A stretch of DNA of 5,099 nucleotides. Source: a virus. A program made the translations under genes and the position numbers. Location: positions 1-5,099 of IMG/VR virus record IMGVR_UViG_3300020041_000213, one strand, 5' to 3'. This document shows, one piece after another, positions 91 to 5,099 of the stretch. The notes beneath the pieces are model-generated. The model saw nothing but the letters and a program-made list of their open reading frames with translations. It did not search any database and was not told the origin of the DNA. The stretch's first letter is position 1; every line of letters starts with the position of its first letter.

Positions 91-122
91 TTAGCCATGG
101 AAATGAAAGGTGGTTTTCTCAC

Positions 123-1259
123 ATGAAAACGGTTGTTAAGCTTGACTATGCTACGTTTGCTTTTGAGCAAGGTTCGATTTCTATTTCTATCATCGAAGAT
201 GCGCTTGCTCAGTGCGATTTACATTTTTCGCAGATTTCCAACGCAAGTGAGAATTCCCCATACAATTCCCCTGCGGGCCTTTTCTTTAAGCCGAACAATG
301 GCGCGAAACAGTCTCCGCACTCTTTGCAAGTGTCCGGTCATGGTTGTGAGCTTTTCCGCCCCACATTGCCGCGGCTCGCGTCACTGATGCAGGATGGTCA
401 TGAATTCGGTCACTTTTCCCGTCTTGACTTTTGCTTCGACGTTGTTATGTCAAAACAACGGTGGCGCGAGTTCTATCTGGGTGTTATTTCTGCTTCTGTT
501 GATGAAATGAATTACCCTGAAAAAGCCCGTAAGGTTCGGAAGGTCATGTATCAGGGCTATGGCGATGCTACTACCGTCTATATTGGTCGTAGAACGTCCT
601 CCGCGGTCTTCTGCCGCATCTATAATAAATCCCTGCAAGACCCCGAAAAAAAGCTCTGTGTGGCTTCTGGTGAGTTTCTGGACTGTCCTGATGATTCTTA
701 CATCATTCGTTATGAGATGGAATTGAAATATACTTCTCGTGTCCGTTCTGGTTCTCGCTCCGTCTATGACCCGTCTTCGCTTTTCTGGTTTTACTACGAA
801 GACCCTGAGAAGCTTTTCGCCTATCTTCGTAAAGTCTGGAATCGTTACGGAAACGATACTCTTCTTCCCGATGGTTGGGAAGACATGCAGTTCGTGACTG
901 ATATTGCTGCACGTGGCATTCATTACACTGATGACTTTTGGCATCCTCTTAGTGATGACCTTGCTCAGAAGCTTTCCGTCTCTATCCATACTGAGGAACA
1001 AAAAATGTCCTATGTTGCTAACGTCTTTGGGCACCGGATTATTGATATCCTTCTTTATCGTCCTGAGTTGCTTTCCCTCGCTTGTTGCAAGTGGGAGCAG
1101 TTCTATAATGAGCGTCTTCCGTTTTCCCCTCTGGCGCTGACACAGGAAGTTGCTCAGTTCTCGGAATCCTCGCGCATTGCTGTCGAGGAATTCTATGAAC
1201 TCGCTGATGACCCCTCTCCCTTTAGTGATGTCGGGTTTGATGATATATCTTTATTCTAA
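123..1259 (+). CDS. Rolling-circle replication initiator, Rep_trans / RstA-like (378 aa from ATG 123)
   Basis: It is the longest ORF. The motif order fits my recollection of the Rep_trans family (pT181 RepC, CTXphi RstA): KLDYATFAF, then HFSRLDFCFDV, then TVYIGRRTSSAVFCRIYNKSLQ, then IIRYEMELKY. ATG 123 lies 12 nt after AAAGG (106-110). The GTG at 81 in the ORF track lies inside the promoter. Confidence 0.8.
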   Translation: MKTVVKLDYATFAFEQGSISISIIEDALAQCDLHFSQISNASENSPYNSPAGLFFKPNNGAKQSPHSLQVSGHGCELFRPTLPRLASLMQDGHEFGHFSRLDFCFDVVMSKQRWREFYLGVISASVDEMNYPEKARKVRKVMYQGYGDATTVYIGRRTSSAVFCRIYNKSLQDPEKKLCVASGEFLDCPDDSYIIRYEMELKYTSRVRSGSRSVYDPSSLFWFYYEDPEKLFAYLRKVWNRYGNDTLLPDGWEDMQFVTDIAARGIHYTDDFWHPLSDDLAQKLSVSIHTEEQKMSYVANVFGHRIIDILLYRPELLSLACCKWEQFYNERLPFSPLALTQEVAQFSESSRIAVEEFYELADDPSPFSDVGFDDISLF

Positions 1260-1556: not shown

Positions 1557-1576
1557 GAGAGCGGTTCGCCGCTCTC
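1557..1576 (+). other. Perfect 8-bp stem-loop with TTCG loop, 4 nt upstream of the tRNA 5' end
   Basis: GAGAGCGG (1557-1564), TTCG, CCGCTCTC (1569-1576). No T-tract follows, so it is not a classical terminator. It may be a processing, stability or attenuator element. Confidence 0.6.
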
Positions 1577-1580
1577 ACAT

Positions 1581-1654
1581 GGCGGGTTGGTGTAATGGTA
1601 ACACGCAAGGTTCTGAGCCTTGACTTGGTAGTTCGATTCTATCTCCCGCAACCA
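1581..1654 (+). tRNA. tRNA with anticodon CUG (Gln-type by anticodon), encoded CCA end and initiator-like acceptor stem
   Basis: Hand-folded cloverleaf. Acceptor GGCGGGT/TCCCGCA: 5 G:C pairs, with G1xA72 and U7xU66 mismatches. U8 G9. D stem GTGT/ACAC with loop AATGGTA. Anticodon stem CAAGG/CCTTG with loop TT-CTG-AG (CTG at 1613-1615). 4-nt variable loop. T stem GGTAG/CTATC with canonical loop TTCGATT. A73 and CCA at 1651-1654. Total length 74 nt. Confidence 0.8.
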
Positions 1655-3139: not shown

Positions 3140-3753
3140 TGGAAGTTCCTACTATTATTAAAATTTGGGTTGATTCTGACGGCGTGACCGTTTATACAGT
3201 TCAGTATAAGGACGGTAGTACCTGTGACATGACCGTTCAGCAGTATGATTATCTTAAGGCATCTGCCGAAGCTGTTGTAAACCTCGATTCTCAGCAGGAT
3301 GCACAAGATTCCTCTTCTCCTGAAGCTCCTTTTTCTGGTGATCCTGCACAAAATATCACTGAATCTCCCGACCTTCGCGAAGGTTATGTGTCAGAGGAAG
3401 AAGTATTGCCTTTTGAAGGGAGCCTAACCGCTTATGATGACCGCGCCGCAGATACTCCGGCTTTGTATGCTAATCTCCCTAACGTCTCTAATAGTTTCAC
3501 TGCTATTATGGATTGGTTCGGAGACACGTTTTTTATCGAACGCACTGAGACGGTGCACAAGTCCGGTTATACGTCCGAAAGGTATTCCTATAGTGGTTCG
3601 ACTCAACTTATTCAGCTTCCTTATGAGGAAGATTCCACTACTACCTCTCAGGTTCTCAACCCGCAAGCTTGCGTTTCTGCTCTTCTTGTTGTCCTTGTCT
3701 TTGTTACTACTGTTACTTGGATTAAGCACGCGATTTGGGGGCGCATGAGCTGA
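3139..3753 (+). CDS. 204-aa acidic protein with a C-terminal TM anchor and no signal peptide; function unknown (possible second minor coat / host-interaction protein)
   Basis: The composition is protein-like and the C-terminal TM is ACVSALLVVLVFVTTVTWIKHAIWGR. GGGGG (3125-3129) lies 9 nt upstream of the ATG. I recognise no family. Confidence 0.65.
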   Translation: MEVPTIIKIWVDSDGVTVYTVQYKDGSTCDMTVQQYDYLKASAEAVVNLDSQQDAQDSSSPEAPFSGDPAQNITESPDLREGYVSEEEVLPFEGSLTAYDDRAADTPALYANLPNVSNSFTAIMDWFGDTFFIERTETVHKSGYTSERYSYSGSTQLIQLPYEEDSTTTSQVLNPQACVSALLVVLVFVTTVTWIKHAIWGRMS

Positions 3754-3866
3754 TGACTATATTACCCTTGCAGTATTGTCTCGGTATATTCTCCGTCCCC
3801 GAGATTGGCTACTTCATTATCTTCGCCGCTGTCTTCTCTATGTTGGTTCTCCTGCTCCGTCCGTGA
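3753..3866 (+). CDS. 37-aa hydrophobic peptide (pVII/pIX-size minor protein candidate)
   Basis: MTILPLQYCLGIFSVPEIGYFIIFAAVFSMLVLLLRP. The ATG overlaps the preceding stop (TGATG), and GGGGG (3737-3741) lies 11 nt upstream. Confidence 0.45.
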   Translation: MTILPLQYCLGIFSVPEIGYFIIFAAVFSMLVLLLRP

Positions 3867-3966
3867 CAGGTACCATAAATATTTTATGAAAGGATGATGA
3901 CTTCAGACTACGCCTACTTCTATCATTGCTACGCTGCTTTCTCAGGTCGGTGAGTTCTTCACCCAG

Positions 3967-4095
3967 ATGATTACCTGGATGGGTCAGTTGCTGGACTTCT
4001 ATGAGGCTCAGCCGATTCTCCTCGTCTTCGTCCTCATCGCTATTGCCGGCATTGTCCTGCGCGTCCTCCGTCGCTGGATTCCCGGTCGCTCTTAA
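3967..4095 (+). CDS. Major-coat-like small protein. The minimal ATG-initiated form is 42 aa; the frame is open from 3901, with a possible non-AUG (CAG 3904) start giving 63 aa
   Basis: MITWMGQLLDFYEAQPILLVFVLIAIAGIVLRVLRRWIPGRS has acidic residues, a TM segment and four Arg at the C-terminus, which is the classic inovirus coat layout. GGTGAG (3949-3954) lies 12 nt upstream of ATG 3967. A strong terminator follows immediately, as after gene VIII in Ff phages. See the findings for the upstream extension. Confidence 0.6.
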   Translation: MITWMGQLLDFYEAQPILLVFVLIAIAGIVLRVLRRWIPGRS

Positions 4096-4102
4096 GTGCT
4101 GA

Positions 4103-4148
4103 GAGAAAACGCCGCCGACCATTTTTGGTCGGCGACGTTTTCTCGTTT
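4103..4148 (+). terminator. Strong rho-independent terminator after the coat-like gene
   Basis: GAGAAAACGCCGCCGACC (4103-4120) pairs with GGTCGGCGACGTTTTCTC (4127-4144). That is an 18-bp stem with one mismatch (C4112xA4135), loop ATTTTT and a GC-rich core followed by TTTTCTCGTTT. It starts 8 nt after the TAA at 4093-4095. Confidence 0.75.
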
Positions 4149-4169
4149 ATGATGAAAGGTTGTTATGCT

Positions 4170-4793
4170 ATGGTTTATGGTATCCTTATCTTTTGCATTT
4201 GCTGGCTTTTTGTATATATCGATAATTATTGCAAAAACCCCTACAAACTTGAAGCTGTTGTTGGTTCGAAAGGCTCTGGCAAGTCTCTGTATATGTCTCG
4301 TGTTGCTGATAAGTGGCTTCGTTCTAATAAGGGGCTTATCTATAGTAATATGGGTATTGGTTATGAGTTAGAGCCGGAATACTGGAAACAGACTTTTCTC
4401 CCTGATTCCCTCATCCTCATAGATGAAATTGGCGTTTTGCACTCTAACCGGGATTTCAAGACTATGCCCCGTGAAGCAGTTGAGTTTTTCAAGATGCAGC
4501 GCAAGTATCACTTGACAATTATTGTATCGTCTCAGACCATGGACTTTGATAAAAAGATTCGTGATCTCTGCGATCGCATTTACCTCTGTAACCGCGTTGG
4601 TTGGTTCTGCCGCCTTACTCCCTATCGCTCCTGCATTGCCATGGAACATCGCCCCGAGGGAGGACAAGAGCTCGTCAATACGGTGCGTAAGGCGGGCAGG
4701 GCAAAATGGTATACCATCCCTAAGGCCGTGAAGCAGGTAAGCGCCTTAGAATACGATACAGAGCAGGTTATCAGCAAGACCCCCTCGAGATAA
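4170..4793 (+). CDS. Zot / pI-like morphogenesis P-loop ATPase, short form (207 aa) with an N-terminal TM helix
   Basis: Walker A GSKGSGKS (nt 4263-4286), Walker B LILIDE, and a Zot-type TIIVSSQ motif. AAAGG (4155-4159) lies 10 nt upstream of ATG 4170. In-frame ATGs at 4149 and 4152 are alternatives. The TTG 4125 in the ORF track lies in the terminator loop. Confidence 0.8.
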   Translation: MVYGILIFCICWLFVYIDNYCKNPYKLEAVVGSKGSGKSLYMSRVADKWLRSNKGLIYSNMGIGYELEPEYWKQTFLPDSLILIDEIGVLHSNRDFKTMPREAVEFFKMQRKYHLTIIVSSQTMDFDKKIRDLCDRIYLCNRVGWFCRLTPYRSCIAMEHRPEGGQELVNTVRKAGRAKWYTIPKAVKQVSALEYDTEQVISKTPSR

Positions 4794-4978: not shown

Positions 4979-5099
4979 GCCGTGACGGCGGGAGCCGGTG
5001 GGCGTGCGTGTAATACGCCCACCTTTTTGCAATTTCCTCTTGACAGCTCCTTCATATTGTGGTAACTTTTAGCCATGGAAATGAAAGGTGGTTTTCTCA
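4979..5099. repeat. Right copy of the 121-nt terminal direct repeat (circular overlap)
   Basis: Identical to 1-121. It contains second copies of the origin-like hairpin, the promoter and the Rep leader motif, which are the same physical locus. Confidence 0.9.

What the first reader, a model, noticed from the sequence alone, without database searches (positions are those of the whole stretch)
3886..3969. Coat-like gene has the conserved ribosome-binding motif but a CAG, not ATG, at the start position
The motif ATGAAAGG (3886-3893) precedes the coat-like ORF.
- At five other genes, AAAGG is followed by 10-12 nt and then ATG. Three of those have exactly 10 nt.
- Here, exactly 10 nt after AAAGG lies CAG (3904-3906).
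- This CAG is in frame with the coat-like ORF. That frame opens only one codon earlier, after TGA 3898-3900.
- The 21 codons before the first ATG (3967) encode a plausible amphipathic segment, QTTPTSIIATLLSQVGEFFTQ. This resembles the N-terminal exposed helix of inovirus coat proteins.
- The two ATGs at 3894 and 3897 are 0 and 3 nt from the motif, which is too close. They open a different frame that stops after 19 codons (3894-3953).
- CAG is the codon read by the phage tRNA at 1581-1654.

Alternatives: start at ATG 3967 (GGTGAG lies 12 nt upstream); a +1 frameshift from the 19-codon ORF; or an assembly indel.
Basis: partly seen in the sequence, partly recalled or inferred. Interest (0 to 1): 0.85.

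Follow-up and report, generated by a model that had tools for sequence, protein, structure and literature searches.

The report
Phage tRNA matches non-AUG coat start
A 5-kb filamentous gut phage seems to start its major coat protein at a glutamine codon (CAG) instead of AUG, read by the phage's own initiator-like tRNA; relatives with other anticodons use the matching codons and relatives without the tRNA use ATG, which would be a natural non-methionine start system.

Summary
No experiment has tested it.

**The window.** It is a circular 4978-nt inovirus-like genome.

**Coding upstream of ATG 3967.** The coat frame is translated up to CAG 3904:
- synonymous:non-synonymous codon differences are 61:29 in the coat frame, against 8:85 and 0:86 in the other frames;
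- all indels after the CAG keep the frame;
- stops lie 1-2 codons upstream.

**The start position.** CAG sits 10 nt after AAAGG, the spacing used by the ATG-started genes.

**The tRNA (1581-1654).** It carries the formyltransferase identity set of bacterial initiator tRNA: an unpaired 1:72, G2:C71, C3:G70, G4:C69, A73 and CCA. Some relatives have exactly the E. coli tRNAfMet acceptor stem. The anticodon is CUG.

**Co-variation across about 145 related genomes.**
- CAG goes with anticodon CUG in 103 contigs.
- CAA goes with UUG in two deep lineages.
- ACG goes with CGU in seven genomes. In an eighth contig of that lineage, which lacks the tRNA region, a TAG stop directly precedes ACG.
- Three tRNA-less lineages have ATG there; in two of them the ATG is at AAAGG+10.
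- There are no discordant cases.

**Caveats.**
- The three G:C pairs of the anticodon stem are not conserved.
- Charging and formylation are inferred.
- Most ACG-lineage genomes keep an in-frame TTG one codon upstream.

No prior description was found.

The parts
3886..3893 (+). Extended Shine-Dalgarno motif ATGAAAGG (core AAAGG at 3889-3893) of the coat gene
   Evidence: The same AAAGG lies 10-12 nt upstream of ATG at five other genes of the window. It is invariant in relatives and is strengthened to AAAGGAGG in L042 and L143.
3894..3903 (+). 10-nt spacer. It holds two out-of-frame ATGs (3894, 3897) and two stops in the coat frame (TGA 3895-3897, TGA 3898-3900), then the variable codon CTT (3901-3903).
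   Evidence: rTGATG is invariant in the main clade. Codon 3901-3903 is CTT, TTT or CAT in relatives, and the stops close the coat frame 1-2 codons before CAG. The ATGs are only 0-3 nt from the SD. The frame they open is not conserved as a peptide, and the ATG is absent in the CAA lineages.
3904..3906 (+). Proposed start codon CAG, complementary to the phage tRNA anticodon CUG
   Evidence: CAG is present in 125/125 main-clade contigs at AAAGG+10. It is replaced by CAA where the tRNA anticodon is UUG, by ACG where it is CGU, and by ATG where there is no tRNA.
3904..4095 (+). Full coat-like ORF: 63 codons plus TAA. Product: QTTPTSIIATLLSQVGEFFTQMITWMGQLLDFYEAQPILLVFVLIAIAGIVLRVLRRWIPGRS
   Evidence: A frame-specific coding signal is present upstream of ATG 3967. 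Indels occur only in multiples of 3, and codons 3-6 have the form NCN. The architecture is an acidic N-part (net charge -3), a hydrophobic 37-55 segment and a basic C-tail (+4). AlphaFold gives one long kinked helix with pLDDT 83. The ORF belongs to a family of 55-70-aa proteins encoded next to zot in small inoviruses.
3967..3969 (+). First in-frame ATG: an internal Met-22, which gene callers take as the start
   Evidence: Upstream codons are under purifying selection in this frame. The position is GTG in L026 and L033. Database proteins of this family are truncated at various false starts of 42-57 aa.
1581..1654 (+). Phage tRNA with anticodon CUG (1613-1615), an initiator-type acceptor stem (G1.A72 unpaired, G2:C71, C3:G70, G4:C69, A73) and an encoded CCA
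   Evidence: Found by ARAGORN and Rfam at 46 bits. The cloverleaf is supported by covariation, and 1:72 is unpaired in 35/35 distinct sequences. Relatives with C1 have an acceptor stem identical to E. coli metZ. The 5' 24 nt are identical to a large-phage tRNA(CAU) that has three G:C pairs.
1557..1576 (+). Hairpin (8-bp stem, UUCG loop) 4 nt upstream of the tRNA 5' end
   Evidence: Read directly from the sequence. Relatives have a different sequence that also forms a hairpin at the same place (GGCCGC-TCCG-GCGGCC). Its function, whether processing or termination, was not tested.
4113..4134 (+). Intrinsic-terminator-like hairpin plus T-run directly after the coat ORF
   Evidence: Found by the terminator scan and conserved in relatives. 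Its position after the coat gene resembles the terminator after gene VIII in Ff phages (the Ff comparison is my own knowledge).

Best explanation
The coat-like gene starts at CAG 3904, and that codon is decoded in the ribosomal P site by the phage's own tRNA (1581-1654). This tRNA is an initiator-type tRNA whose anticodon has changed from CAU to CUG.

**Proposed steps**
1. The tRNA is cut out of the polycistronic plus-strand transcript. Its CCA is encoded.
2. A host synthetase charges it according to its anticodon, most likely with Gln. In the ACG lineage the amino acid would be Thr.
3. The tRNA has the complete identity set of methionyl-tRNA formyltransferase (unpaired 1:72, A73, G2:C71, C3:G70, G4:C69). 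So the aminoacyl group is formylated, and the tRNA is kept away from EF-Tu.
4. A 30S subunit held by the AAAGG Shine-Dalgarno places the codon 10 nt downstream in the P site. There CAG pairs with CUG.
5. The 63-residue coat protein is made with (formyl-)Gln, not Met, at its N-terminus.

**Shown here**
- The reading frame is coding up to the CAG, and no conserved canonical start exists.
- The SD spacing matches the ATG-started genes.
- The tRNA is structurally conserved.
- The tRNA has an initiator-type acceptor stem.
- The anticodon, or the presence of the tRNA at all, changes together with the codon at the start position across lineages.

**Inferred**
- Charging, formylation and P-site use of the tRNA.
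- The N-terminal residue.
- That the product is the major coat protein.
- The selective advantage. Possibilities are coat synthesis made dependent on a phage product, or a non-Met, possibly blocked N-terminus on a coat that has no cleaved signal peptide.
For: **1. Coding extends to the CAG.**
- In 3904-3966, synonymous:non-synonymous codon differences are 61:29 in the coat frame, against 8:85 and 0:86 in the other two frames.
- The distance from CAR to the conserved VGxFFT core is 33, 36 or 39 nt in 50/50 contigs.
- Codons 3-6 have C as their middle base in 63-67 of 67 distinct sequences.
- In-frame stops lie 1-2 codons upstream.

**2. No alternative in-frame start is universal.** ATH/NTG codons occur at four positions, in 115, 34, 123 and 97 of 130 contigs. 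L074 and L122 have none at the Ile positions. CAR is present in 130/130.

**3. Position.** AAAGG + 10 nt is the spacing of three ATG-started genes in the window. It is also the spacing of the ATG of the homologous coat genes in tRNA-less relatives. With a full AAAGGAGG, the CAG lies 7-8 nt after GGAGG. The region is unstructured (z = +1.4).

**4. The tRNA.**
- The cloverleaf shows covariation (score 0.38 against 0.13 in shuffles, 0/500 shuffles as high). Position 1:72 is never paired, being G.A or C.A, in 35/35 distinct sequences.
- The acceptor stem, A73 and CCA are identical to E. coli metZ in the C1 variants.
- These positions are the published formylase identity elements (PMC9976931; PMC5393177).
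- The only other IMG/VR sequences with this acceptor and D arm are tRNA(CAU) genes with three G:C pairs.

**5. Co-variation.**
- CAG with CUG in 103 contigs; CAA with UUG in L046-48/L144 and in the independent L264; no discordant cases.
- ACG with CGU in 7/7 genomes. In L280 an in-frame TAG directly precedes ACG.
- L265 and L271-273 have no tRNA and ATG at AAAGG+10. L277 and L278 have no tRNA and ATG after a different SD (AGGAGGTGA and a GGGGG-type motif).
- In the Zot tree, each tRNA clade has an ATG-starting, tRNA-less sister lineage.

**6. Codon usage does not explain the anticodon.** Gln usage is 73-75% CAG in both the CUG and the UUG lineages.

**7. Experimental precedent.** Anticodon mutants of E. 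coli tRNAfMet are charged by GlnRS or ValRS, formylated, and initiate at the complementary non-AUG codon (PMC2268962).
Against: - There is no experimental evidence of any kind: no N-terminal sequence, no ribosome profiling, and no data on charging or formylation.
- The three consecutive G:C pairs of the anticodon stem are a hallmark of initiators, and they are not conserved. The window and the CAA-lineage tRNAs are au/GC/GC, a natural functional variant. But 23 of 35 distinct main-clade tRNAs have C30:G40, a change that stops E. coli tRNAfMet from sustaining growth (PMC5389676).
- Pair 11:24 is U:A, not the initiator-type R11:Y24.
- IF2 binds fGln-tRNA worst among the aminoacyl groups tested (PMC2268962), which is awkward for a protein needed in thousands of copies.
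- The Thr-type tRNAs have a weak U1:A72 pair, U73 and C37. Seven of the eight ACG-lineage genomes read here keep an in-frame TTG one codon before ACG.
- The CAG/CAA switch amounts to one or two evolutionary events.
- Invariance of the start CAG is not unique: two of the 24 other conserved Gln sites also never show CAA.
- Three assemblies have an aberrant tRNA but keep CAG: L138, L025 and L016.
- If the host lacks GlnRS, the residue could be Glu instead of Gln (my own knowledge of the GatCAB pathway).
Confidence: 0.75

Rival explanations
1. Translation starts at a downstream near-cognate or canonical codon read by the host fMet-tRNA. Candidates are ATC 3922 / ATT 3925 (ATG in the CAA lineages), CTG 3934, TTG in relatives, or ATG 3967. 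The tRNA would then be an ordinary elongator that boosts Gln (or Thr) decoding.
For: The Ile/Met position is ATH or ATG in 115/130 contigs, and it is ATG in L045, L047 and L264, where gene callers start. GGTGAG lies 12 nt before ATG 3967. Phage-encoded elongator tRNAs are common (my own knowledge).
Against: - No such codon is universal, and L074 and L122 have none at the Ile positions.
- There is no SD within 25 nt of these codons.
- The codons between CAR and them show frame-specific constraint and in-frame indels.
- An elongator would not keep an unpaired 1:72 and the formylase identity set in 35/35 sequences.
- It also would not change its anticodon together with this one codon while Gln codon usage stays the same.
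- It would not disappear exactly where the codon is ATG.
Confidence: 0.1
2. Initiation occurs at the out-of-frame ATG 3894/3897, followed by an immediate programmed +1 frameshift into the coat frame. The product would be M-(L)-Q-T-T...
For: An ATG 7 nt upstream of the special codon is conserved in most tRNA-bearing lineages. An SD placed 3 nt before a P-site codon stimulates +1 shifting in prfB (my own knowledge).
Against: - The four bases between the ATG and the special codon vary: ACTT, TTTT, CTTT, ACAT, CCTT, ACCG. So there is no slippery site.
- The ATG is absent in L047 and L264 and is ATA in L050.
- It is in frame in L268-270, and in L280 it is followed by a TAG stop.
- It lies only 0-4 nt from the SD.
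- This model does not explain the tRNA.
Confidence: 0.04
3. The host initiator tRNA initiates directly at CAG, CAA or ACG at low efficiency, or at the preceding codon. The phage tRNA serves another role, such as decoding the first A-site codon, acting as an integration target, or acting as an RNA-processing signal.
For: Very weak initiation from many non-cognate codons has been measured in E. coli (my own knowledge). tRNA genes are common integration sites (PMC8530359).
Against: - A major coat protein needs strong expression.
- CAG and CAA differ from AUG at two positions.
- The preceding codon is unconserved: CTT, TTT, CAT, CCG, TTG or TAG.
- The exact anticodon-codon complementarity in three versions, and the formylase identity set, would be left unexplained.
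Confidence: 0.08
4. Sequencing or assembly error (a 1-nt indel), or the use of another genetic code with TGA read as sense, puts the motif's ATG 3886 or ATG 3894/3897 in frame.
For: ATG 3886 is in the coat frame, separated from it only by TGA TGA. In L042-44 that frame is open, and gene callers produce MKGGCLQTPSTS.
Against: - About 130 independent assemblies from pig and human samples give the same sequence.
- The upstream triplet is ATG, AAG, TTG or TAG, or is replaced by CGAAAGG, in relatives.
- TGA ends three other genes of the window, at 2848-2850, 3751-3753 and 3864-3866.
- All long ORFs are intact in the standard code.
Confidence: 0.01

Closest known systems
Engineered anticodon-mutant initiator tRNAs: E. 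coli tRNAfMet U35A36 (CUA), G34C36 (GAC), and later the AAC 'orthogonal initiators'
   Same: An initiator-type acceptor stem is combined with a non-CAU anticodon. The tRNA is charged by the synthetase that reads the new anticodon (GlnRS for CUA), is formylated, and initiates at the complementary non-AUG codon placed behind an SD (PMC2268962).
   Different: Those tRNAs are laboratory constructs. They keep the three G:C pairs and A11:U24. Here the system is natural, phage-encoded, dedicated to one gene, evolutionarily maintained in several codon/anticodon versions, and has a drifted anticodon stem.
Phage-encoded initiator tRNA(CAU) genes of large tailed phages, for example the tRNAs in L058 and L059
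   Same: They share the acceptor and D arm (24 identical 5' nucleotides with L059), G1.A72, A73, and being phage-borne. They are probably the same tRNA lineage.
   Different: They keep CAU, the CUCAUAA loop and three G:C pairs, so they read normal AUG starts with Met.
Phage suppressor tRNAs in stop-codon-recoded gut phages (crAss-like and Lak phages)
   Same: A phage tRNA changes how particular phage (often structural or late) genes are decoded, which makes their expression depend on a phage product (bioRxiv 10.1101/2021.08.26.457843, listed).
   Different: Those tRNAs act in elongation at stop codons. Here the tRNA acts, by inference, at initiation on a sense codon, and the genome is only 5 kb.
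Methionine-independent initiation of dicistrovirus capsid genes (IGR IRES; PSIV capsid begins with Gln CAA) - my own knowledge
   Same: A viral capsid protein begins with a non-Met residue encoded by a non-AUG codon.
   Different: The IRES mimics a tRNA-mRNA pair, no initiator tRNA is used, and the first codon is decoded in the A site. It is eukaryotic and mechanistically unrelated.
Signal-peptide-less inovirus major coat proteins such as Pf3 - my own knowledge
   Same: A small single-helix protein with an acidic N-part, a hydrophobic core and a basic C-tail, with no cleavable leader.
   Different: Pf3 coat starts with a normal AUG. No sequence or fold match to a solved coat protein could be obtained here.

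Membership tests
Bacterial initiator tRNA (tRNAfMet type) | No strong Watson-Crick pair at 1:72 (C1xA72 in most bacteria) | tested here: met
   Position 1:72 is G.A or C.A in 35/35 distinct Gln-type sequences. It is the weak pair U1:A72 in the Thr-type, and a weak pair is tolerated by the formylase (PMC5393177).
Bacterial initiator tRNA (tRNAfMet type) | Minor formyltransferase determinants A73, G2:C71, C3:G70, G4:C69 | tested here: met
   These are invariant in the Gln-type tRNAs and identical to E. coli metZ. The determinants are as listed in PMC9976931. The Thr-type has U73, and G4.U69 in some members.
Bacterial initiator tRNA (tRNAfMet type) | Three consecutive G:C pairs 29:41, 30:40, 31:39 | tested here: not met
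   The window and the CAA-lineage tRNAs are au/GC/GC, a natural variant that is functional in E. coli (PMC5389676). However, 23/35 distinct sequences have C30:G40, and 31:39 varies.
Bacterial initiator tRNA (tRNAfMet type) | R11:Y24 (A11:U24) in the D stem | tested here: not met
   The pair is U11:A24 in 35/35 sequences.
Bacterial initiator tRNA (tRNAfMet type) | Anticodon CAU, charged with Met | tested here: not met
   The anticodons are CUG, UUG or CGU. This departure is the essence of the finding.
Bacterial initiator tRNA (tRNAfMet type) | Is formylated and used in the P site at initiation | not testable with these tools
   This needs biochemistry or profiling.
Bacterial elongator tRNA-Gln | Gln anticodon (CUG/UUG) | tested here: met
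   Shown by ARAGORN.
Bacterial elongator tRNA-Gln | Acceptor identity of the E. coli type (U1:A72, G73, G2:C71, G3:C70) and overall similarity to tRNA-Gln | tested here: not met
   The phage tRNA has A73, C3:G70 and an unpaired 1:72. Identity is 48/75 to E. coli glnV against 57/77 to metZ. Host (Firmicute) tRNA-Gln genes were not available for comparison.
Inovirus major coat protein | About 45-70 aa, one long alpha-helix, acidic N-part, hydrophobic middle, basic C-terminus | tested here: met
   Supported by the charge and hydrophobicity profile and by the AlphaFold model with helices 4-35 and 37-58, pLDDT 83.
Inovirus major coat protein | Sequence or fold match to a described coat family | tested here: not met
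   There is no Pfam or PHROG hit, no PDB sequence hit and no Foldseek hit. The protein belongs to an unnamed family of 68 clusters encoded next to zot.
Inovirus major coat protein | Presence as the major virion component | not testable with these tools
   This needs virion proteomics.
Programmed +1 ribosomal frameshift site | Conserved slippery sequence and an upstream ORF with a conserved start | tested here: not met
   The bases between the ATG and the special codon vary, and the ATG is absent in L047 and L264.

The most novel reading that the evidence does not exclude
A clade of about 5-kb filamentous phages of gut Firmicutes carries a private initiator tRNA that has been re-targeted at least to CAG, CAA and ACG. 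Their major coat protein is therefore initiated with formyl-Gln or formyl-Thr at a sense codon that the host cannot use as a start.

This would be the first natural example of non-methionine, non-AUG-family initiation by a dedicated initiator tRNA. It would amount to a natural orthogonal translation-initiation system. Start codon and anticodon co-evolve, and the system has been gained or lost together with reversion to ATG.
Probability: 0.7. Interest if true: 0.95.

Novelty: categorically new. Interest (0 to 1): 0.92.

Why it matters
All known natural cellular and phage translation in bacteria starts with the initiator tRNA(CAU) on AUG, GUG, UUG or rare near-cognate codons. Non-AUG initiation with another amino acid has been achieved only with engineered initiator tRNAs. 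If this finding is true, several things follow.

- **Start-codon identity can evolve.** A mobile element could reprogram it with a single 74-nt gene.
- **A natural orthogonal initiator.** These phages offer a compact, evolution-tested initiator/start-codon pair, in three versions, for synthetic biology.
- **An annotation blind spot.** The coat gene is missing from the GenBank records of these phages and from PHROGs. Protein databases hold it only as truncated fragments. Other genes that depend on phage tRNAs for initiation may be hidden in the same way.
- **New questions.** How do host IF2, IF3, formylase and deformylase handle fGln and fThr? What does a phage gain from a non-Met coat N-terminus, or from making coat synthesis depend on its own tRNA?

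Tried and rejected
**Explanations rejected**
- TGA as a sense codon (code 4 or 25), which would make ATG 3886 the start. Rejected because TGA ends three other genes, the upstream triplet is not conserved, and all ORFs are intact in code 11.
- Start at ATG 3967. Rejected because the upstream region is coding in the same frame.
- A +1 frameshift from ATG 3894/3897. Rejected because there is no slippery site and the ATG is not universal.
- Start at the Ile/Met codon (3922/3925). Not universal, no SD, and the upstream codons are constrained.
- The tRNA as a codon-usage supplement. Rejected because Gln usage is identical in the CUG and UUG lineages.

**Tests with limited power**
- Unusual invariance of the start CAG gives only modest support: 3 of 25 conserved Gln sites, including the start itself, never show CAA.

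**Searches that found nothing useful**
- Pfam, PHROGs, PDB sequence and Foldseek searches for the coat gave no hits.
- IMG/VR scans with the Zot proteins of the ACG lineage and the L265 lineage found no relatives.
- Five literature searches found no description of the phenomenon.

**Corrections and cautions**
- Host label: the 'Alistipes' label of L143 is contradicted by the flanking ORFs. From their translations I read these as radA, cwlD, cotJB, cotJC and cysK, which point to a spore-forming Firmicute. The integrated relative L271 lies next to a gene with a SpoIID Pfam hit.
- Rfam's default filters missed a genuine tRNA in L268. The negative results for the ATG lineages were therefore repeated with permissive filters.
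Full report
**1. The object**

The window is a terminally redundant copy of a circular genome of 4978 nt; bases 1-121 equal 4979-5099. All genes lie on the + strand:
- rep (123-1259; PF02486/phrog_27843);
- an 80-aa gene (1278-1520);
- a tRNA (1581-1654);
- a 379-aa secreted protein;
- three small membrane proteins and a 204-aa protein;
- the coat-like ORF;
- a Zot-type assembly ATPase (4170-4793).

Four GenBank 'Inovirus sp.' genomes from pigs are about 80% identical, and none of them annotates the coat ORF. PHROGs has a family for every gene except this one.

**2. The observation**

- AAAGG precedes ATG by 10, 10, 10, 11 and 12 nt at five genes.
- At 3889-3893 it precedes CAG 3904 by 10 nt.
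- CAG is in frame with the ORF ending at 4095.
- TGA TGA (3895-3900) close that frame just upstream.
- The two ATGs at 3894 and 3897 lie in another frame that stops at 3951-3953.

**3. The region upstream of ATG 3967 is translated in the coat frame**

- Against the four pig phages, codon differences in 3904-3966 are 61 synonymous to 29 non-synonymous in the coat frame. In the other two frames they are 8:85 and 0:86.
- In 50 distinct contigs, the distance from the CAG/CAA to the conserved VGxFFT core is 33, 36 or 39 nt, always a multiple of three.
- Codons 3-6 keep C as the middle base in 63-67 of 67 distinct sequences, while their first and third bases vary. They encode only Ala, Thr, Ser or Pro.
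- The frame opens only one or two codons before the CAG. The preceding codon is CTT, TTT, CAT or CCG, and before that comes TGA, TGT or TGC.
- No in-frame ATG, GTG, TTG, CTG or ATH codon is universal. They occur at four positions, in 115, 34, 123 and 97 of 130 contigs, and two contigs have none at the Ile positions. CAR is present in 130/130.
- ATG 3967 is therefore an internal Met. Protein databases hold this gene only as fragments of 42-57 aa that begin at assorted false starts.

**4. The tRNA is an initiator-type tRNA with a changed anticodon**

- In 35 distinct sequences the cloverleaf is maintained by compensatory changes. Eleven pairs change on both sides. The covariation score is 0.38 against 0.13 in shuffles (0/500 as high) and at most 0.10 in slid controls.
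- Position 1:72 is never paired. It is G.A in most sequences and C.A in nine genomes.
- G2:C71, C3:G70, G4:C69, G5:C68, G6:C67, A73 and an encoded CCA are invariant.
- The C1 variants therefore read CGCGGGG...CCCCGCA-A-CCA, identical to the acceptor stem of E. coli metZ.
- These positions are exactly the published identity set of methionyl-tRNA formyltransferase: the unpaired 1-72 is the major element, and A73, G2-C71, C3-G70 and G4-C69 are minor elements (PMC9976931).
- Lack of a strong 1-72 pair also keeps initiators away from EF-Tu and peptidyl-tRNA hydrolase (PMC5393177).
- The only other IMG/VR sequences with this acceptor and D arm are tRNA(CAU) genes of two large phages. They have G1.A72, A73, a CUCAUAA loop and three G:C pairs. 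One shares its first 24 nt with the window tRNA.
- The tRNA is unlike E. coli tRNA-Gln: 48/75 identical, against 57/77 to metZ. It has A73 instead of G73 and C3:G70 instead of G3:C70.

Departures from a canonical initiator:
- 11:24 is U:A.
- The three G:C pairs are not kept. The window and the CAA lineages are au/GC/GC, a natural variant that works in E. coli. But 23 of 35 distinct sequences have C30:G40, which in E. coli enters 70S complexes but does not sustain growth (PMC5389676).

**5. The start codon changes together with the tRNA**

I assembled about 145 related contigs from the following sources:
- GenBank and IMG/VR;
- JGI/ENA metagenomes;
- GTDB genomes;
- Logan/ENA assemblies.

| Lineage | Codon at the start position | tRNA |
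|---|---|---|
| Main clade | CAG at AAAGG+10 | CUG in 103 contigs |
| L046-48 / L144 (99% identical to each other) | CAA at +11 | UUG |
| L264 | CAA at +11 | UUG |
| L045 (fragment, 71% to L047) | CAA at +10 | region not on contig |
| L143 (72% to the window) | AAAGGAGG-AATGACCG-CAG, in-frame TGA two codons upstream | region not on contig |
| ACG lineage: L267-270, L274-276 (Zot about 50% identical to the window) | ACG at +9/+10 | homologous tRNA with CGU in 7/7 |
| L265 | ATG at AAAGG+10 (MSDAGMTLATLL...) | none |
| L271-273 | ATG at AAAGG+10 (MEGGGTTAMTLA...) | none |
| L277 / L278 | ATG after a different SD | none |

- In the main clade, the contigs without a tRNA are fragments, apart from one 2x-coverage assembly with a disrupted 5' half. 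There is no discordant pair.
- In the ACG lineage, the Thr that follows the called start is invariant in 120 protein clusters (MT.P / MLT.P). Most members have an in-frame TTG one codon upstream. In L280 that codon is TAG, so the coat frame opens exactly at ACG.
- In L265 and L271-273, the slot between the ssb-like gene and the g3-like gene, where the tRNA sits in the other lineages, is closed.
- The wider coat family (68 clusters at 50% identity) normally starts with Met.
- In a Zot tree, the Gln-type clade and the Thr-type clade each have a tRNA-less, ATG-starting sister lineage. So tRNA state and start codon have changed together in at least three or four events.
- Gln codon usage is 73% CAG in the window and 75% in L047, so the UUG anticodon does not follow general codon usage.
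- In the main clade, 21 of the 24 other conserved Gln sites are polymorphic between CAG and CAA. The start codon never is, although two other sites are invariant as well.

**6. Mechanism**

The best-supported reading has these steps:
- The SD-bound 30S subunit places the codon about 10 nt downstream in the P site.
- That codon pairs with the phage tRNA.
- The tRNA is charged according to its anticodon.
- It is formylated because it carries the formylase identity set.

This is exactly what happens with laboratory anticodon mutants of tRNAfMet. The U35A36 mutant is charged by GlnRS, formylated, and initiates at UAG. The G34C36 mutant does the same with Val at GUC (PMC2268962).

Further support:
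- The start region is unstructured (z = +1.4).
- A terminator follows the gene.

The product (63 aa) has:
- an acidic N-part (net charge -3);
- a hydrophobic segment at 37-55;
- a basic tail (+4);
- an AlphaFold model that is one long kinked helix, including the residues upstream of Met-22 (pLDDT 83).

This architecture is that of a leaderless inovirus major coat protein. No sequence or fold match to a described coat family could be obtained.

Charging, formylation, P-site use, the N-terminal residue and the benefit to the phage are all inferred.

**7. Host**

- The extended SD (AAAGGAGG) fits a Firmicute host.
- L143 is joined to DNA whose ORFs I read as RadA, CwlD, CotJB/CotJC and CysK.
- The integrated relative L271 lies between genes with semialdehyde-dehydrogenase, SpoIID and queuosine-synthesis Pfam hits on one side, and an integrase followed by a glycerol-3-phosphate-dehydrogenase gene on the other.
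- L144 is binned with Roseburia.
- CRISPR spacers assign related gut inoviruses to Clostridiales (PMC8530359).

**8. Weak points**

- The evidence is entirely comparative.
- The anticodon stem is not initiator-like in most main-clade members.
- fGln is the aminoacyl group that IF2 binds worst (PMC2268962).
- The Thr-type tRNA has U1:A72, U73 and C37, and usually a neighbouring TTG.
- The CAG/CAA switch represents few independent events.
- An out-of-frame ATG 7 nt upstream of the special codon is conserved in most tRNA-bearing lineages and remains unexplained.

**9. Novelty**

Five full-text searches found no description of a phage- or virus-encoded initiator tRNA with a non-CAU anticodon, or of a CAG, CAA or ACG start in these phages. 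The closest known things are:
- the engineered initiators;
- phage tRNA(CAU) genes;
- phage suppressor tRNAs;
- by analogy only, Met-independent capsid initiation in dicistroviruses.

I rate the best explanation at 0.75 and the interest at 0.92.

Noticed in passing
window 3894-3899, and homologous positions in L042, L045, L143, L267, L268 and L280: An ATG lies 7 nt upstream of the special start codon, and only 1-4 nt after the SD, in most tRNA-bearing lineages. In L268-270 and L280 it lies 6 nt upstream, which puts it in frame. It is absent in the CAA lineages L047 and L264 and in the tRNA-less ATG lineages. L050 has ATA there. It could be a decoy, a relic, or part of the SD pairing; this remains unexplained.
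   Followed up: partly
Of 119 matches, 114 had CAU. Two unrelated phage contigs carry such a tRNA with anticodon UGU (in a 71% GC contig, with C33) or ACU. These may be further re-targeted initiator tRNAs.
   Followed up: partly
window 1557-1576: A hairpin with an 8-bp stem and a UUCG tetraloop ends 4 nt before the tRNA 5' end. Relatives have a different sequence that forms a hairpin at the same place. It may be a processing or termination signal.
   Followed up: no
L075 (777-5805 of a 50.7-kb contig), L090, and L143 (1-1822 of a 96-kb contig): Phage sequence is joined to unrelated DNA. In L075 and L090 the junction lies at about window 914-952, inside rep. In L143 it lies after zot, next to Firmicute sporulation genes, although the bin is labelled Alistipes. 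These junctions are either integration events or assembly chimeras. The relative L271 is a clear prophage with a tyrosine integrase.
   Followed up: partly
L138 1560-1650; L025 tRNA; L016 tRNA; window 1587/1644: Several tRNA copies are aberrant. L138 has its 5' half replaced (2x coverage). L025 has an 8-nt anticodon loop (CUACUGAA). L016 has G33. The window's own tRNA has a U7.U66 mismatch that none of the other 34 distinct sequences has. All of these genomes keep CAG at the coat start.
   Followed up: partly
L280 557-565; protein P0210: The database protein MQTPAATG... was called by reading an in-frame TAG as Gln. So some pipelines assign these phages a recoded genetic code because the real start is not recognised.
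   Followed up: partly
window 103-110, 1259-1266, 3886-3893, 4152-4159: The full 8-mer ATGAAAGG, not just AAAGG, recurs at four gene starts on the + strand and never on the - strand. At the zot gene its ATG is in frame with the ORF. The ATG is not conserved in relatives, where it is AAG, TTG or TAG.
   Followed up: partly
L144 1-210: The Roseburia-binned genome of the CAA lineage has a tandem array of a roughly 28-nt unit at one contig end; blastn shows repeated 58-nt matches at 28-nt steps. The array presumably lies in the non-coding origin region.
   Followed up: no
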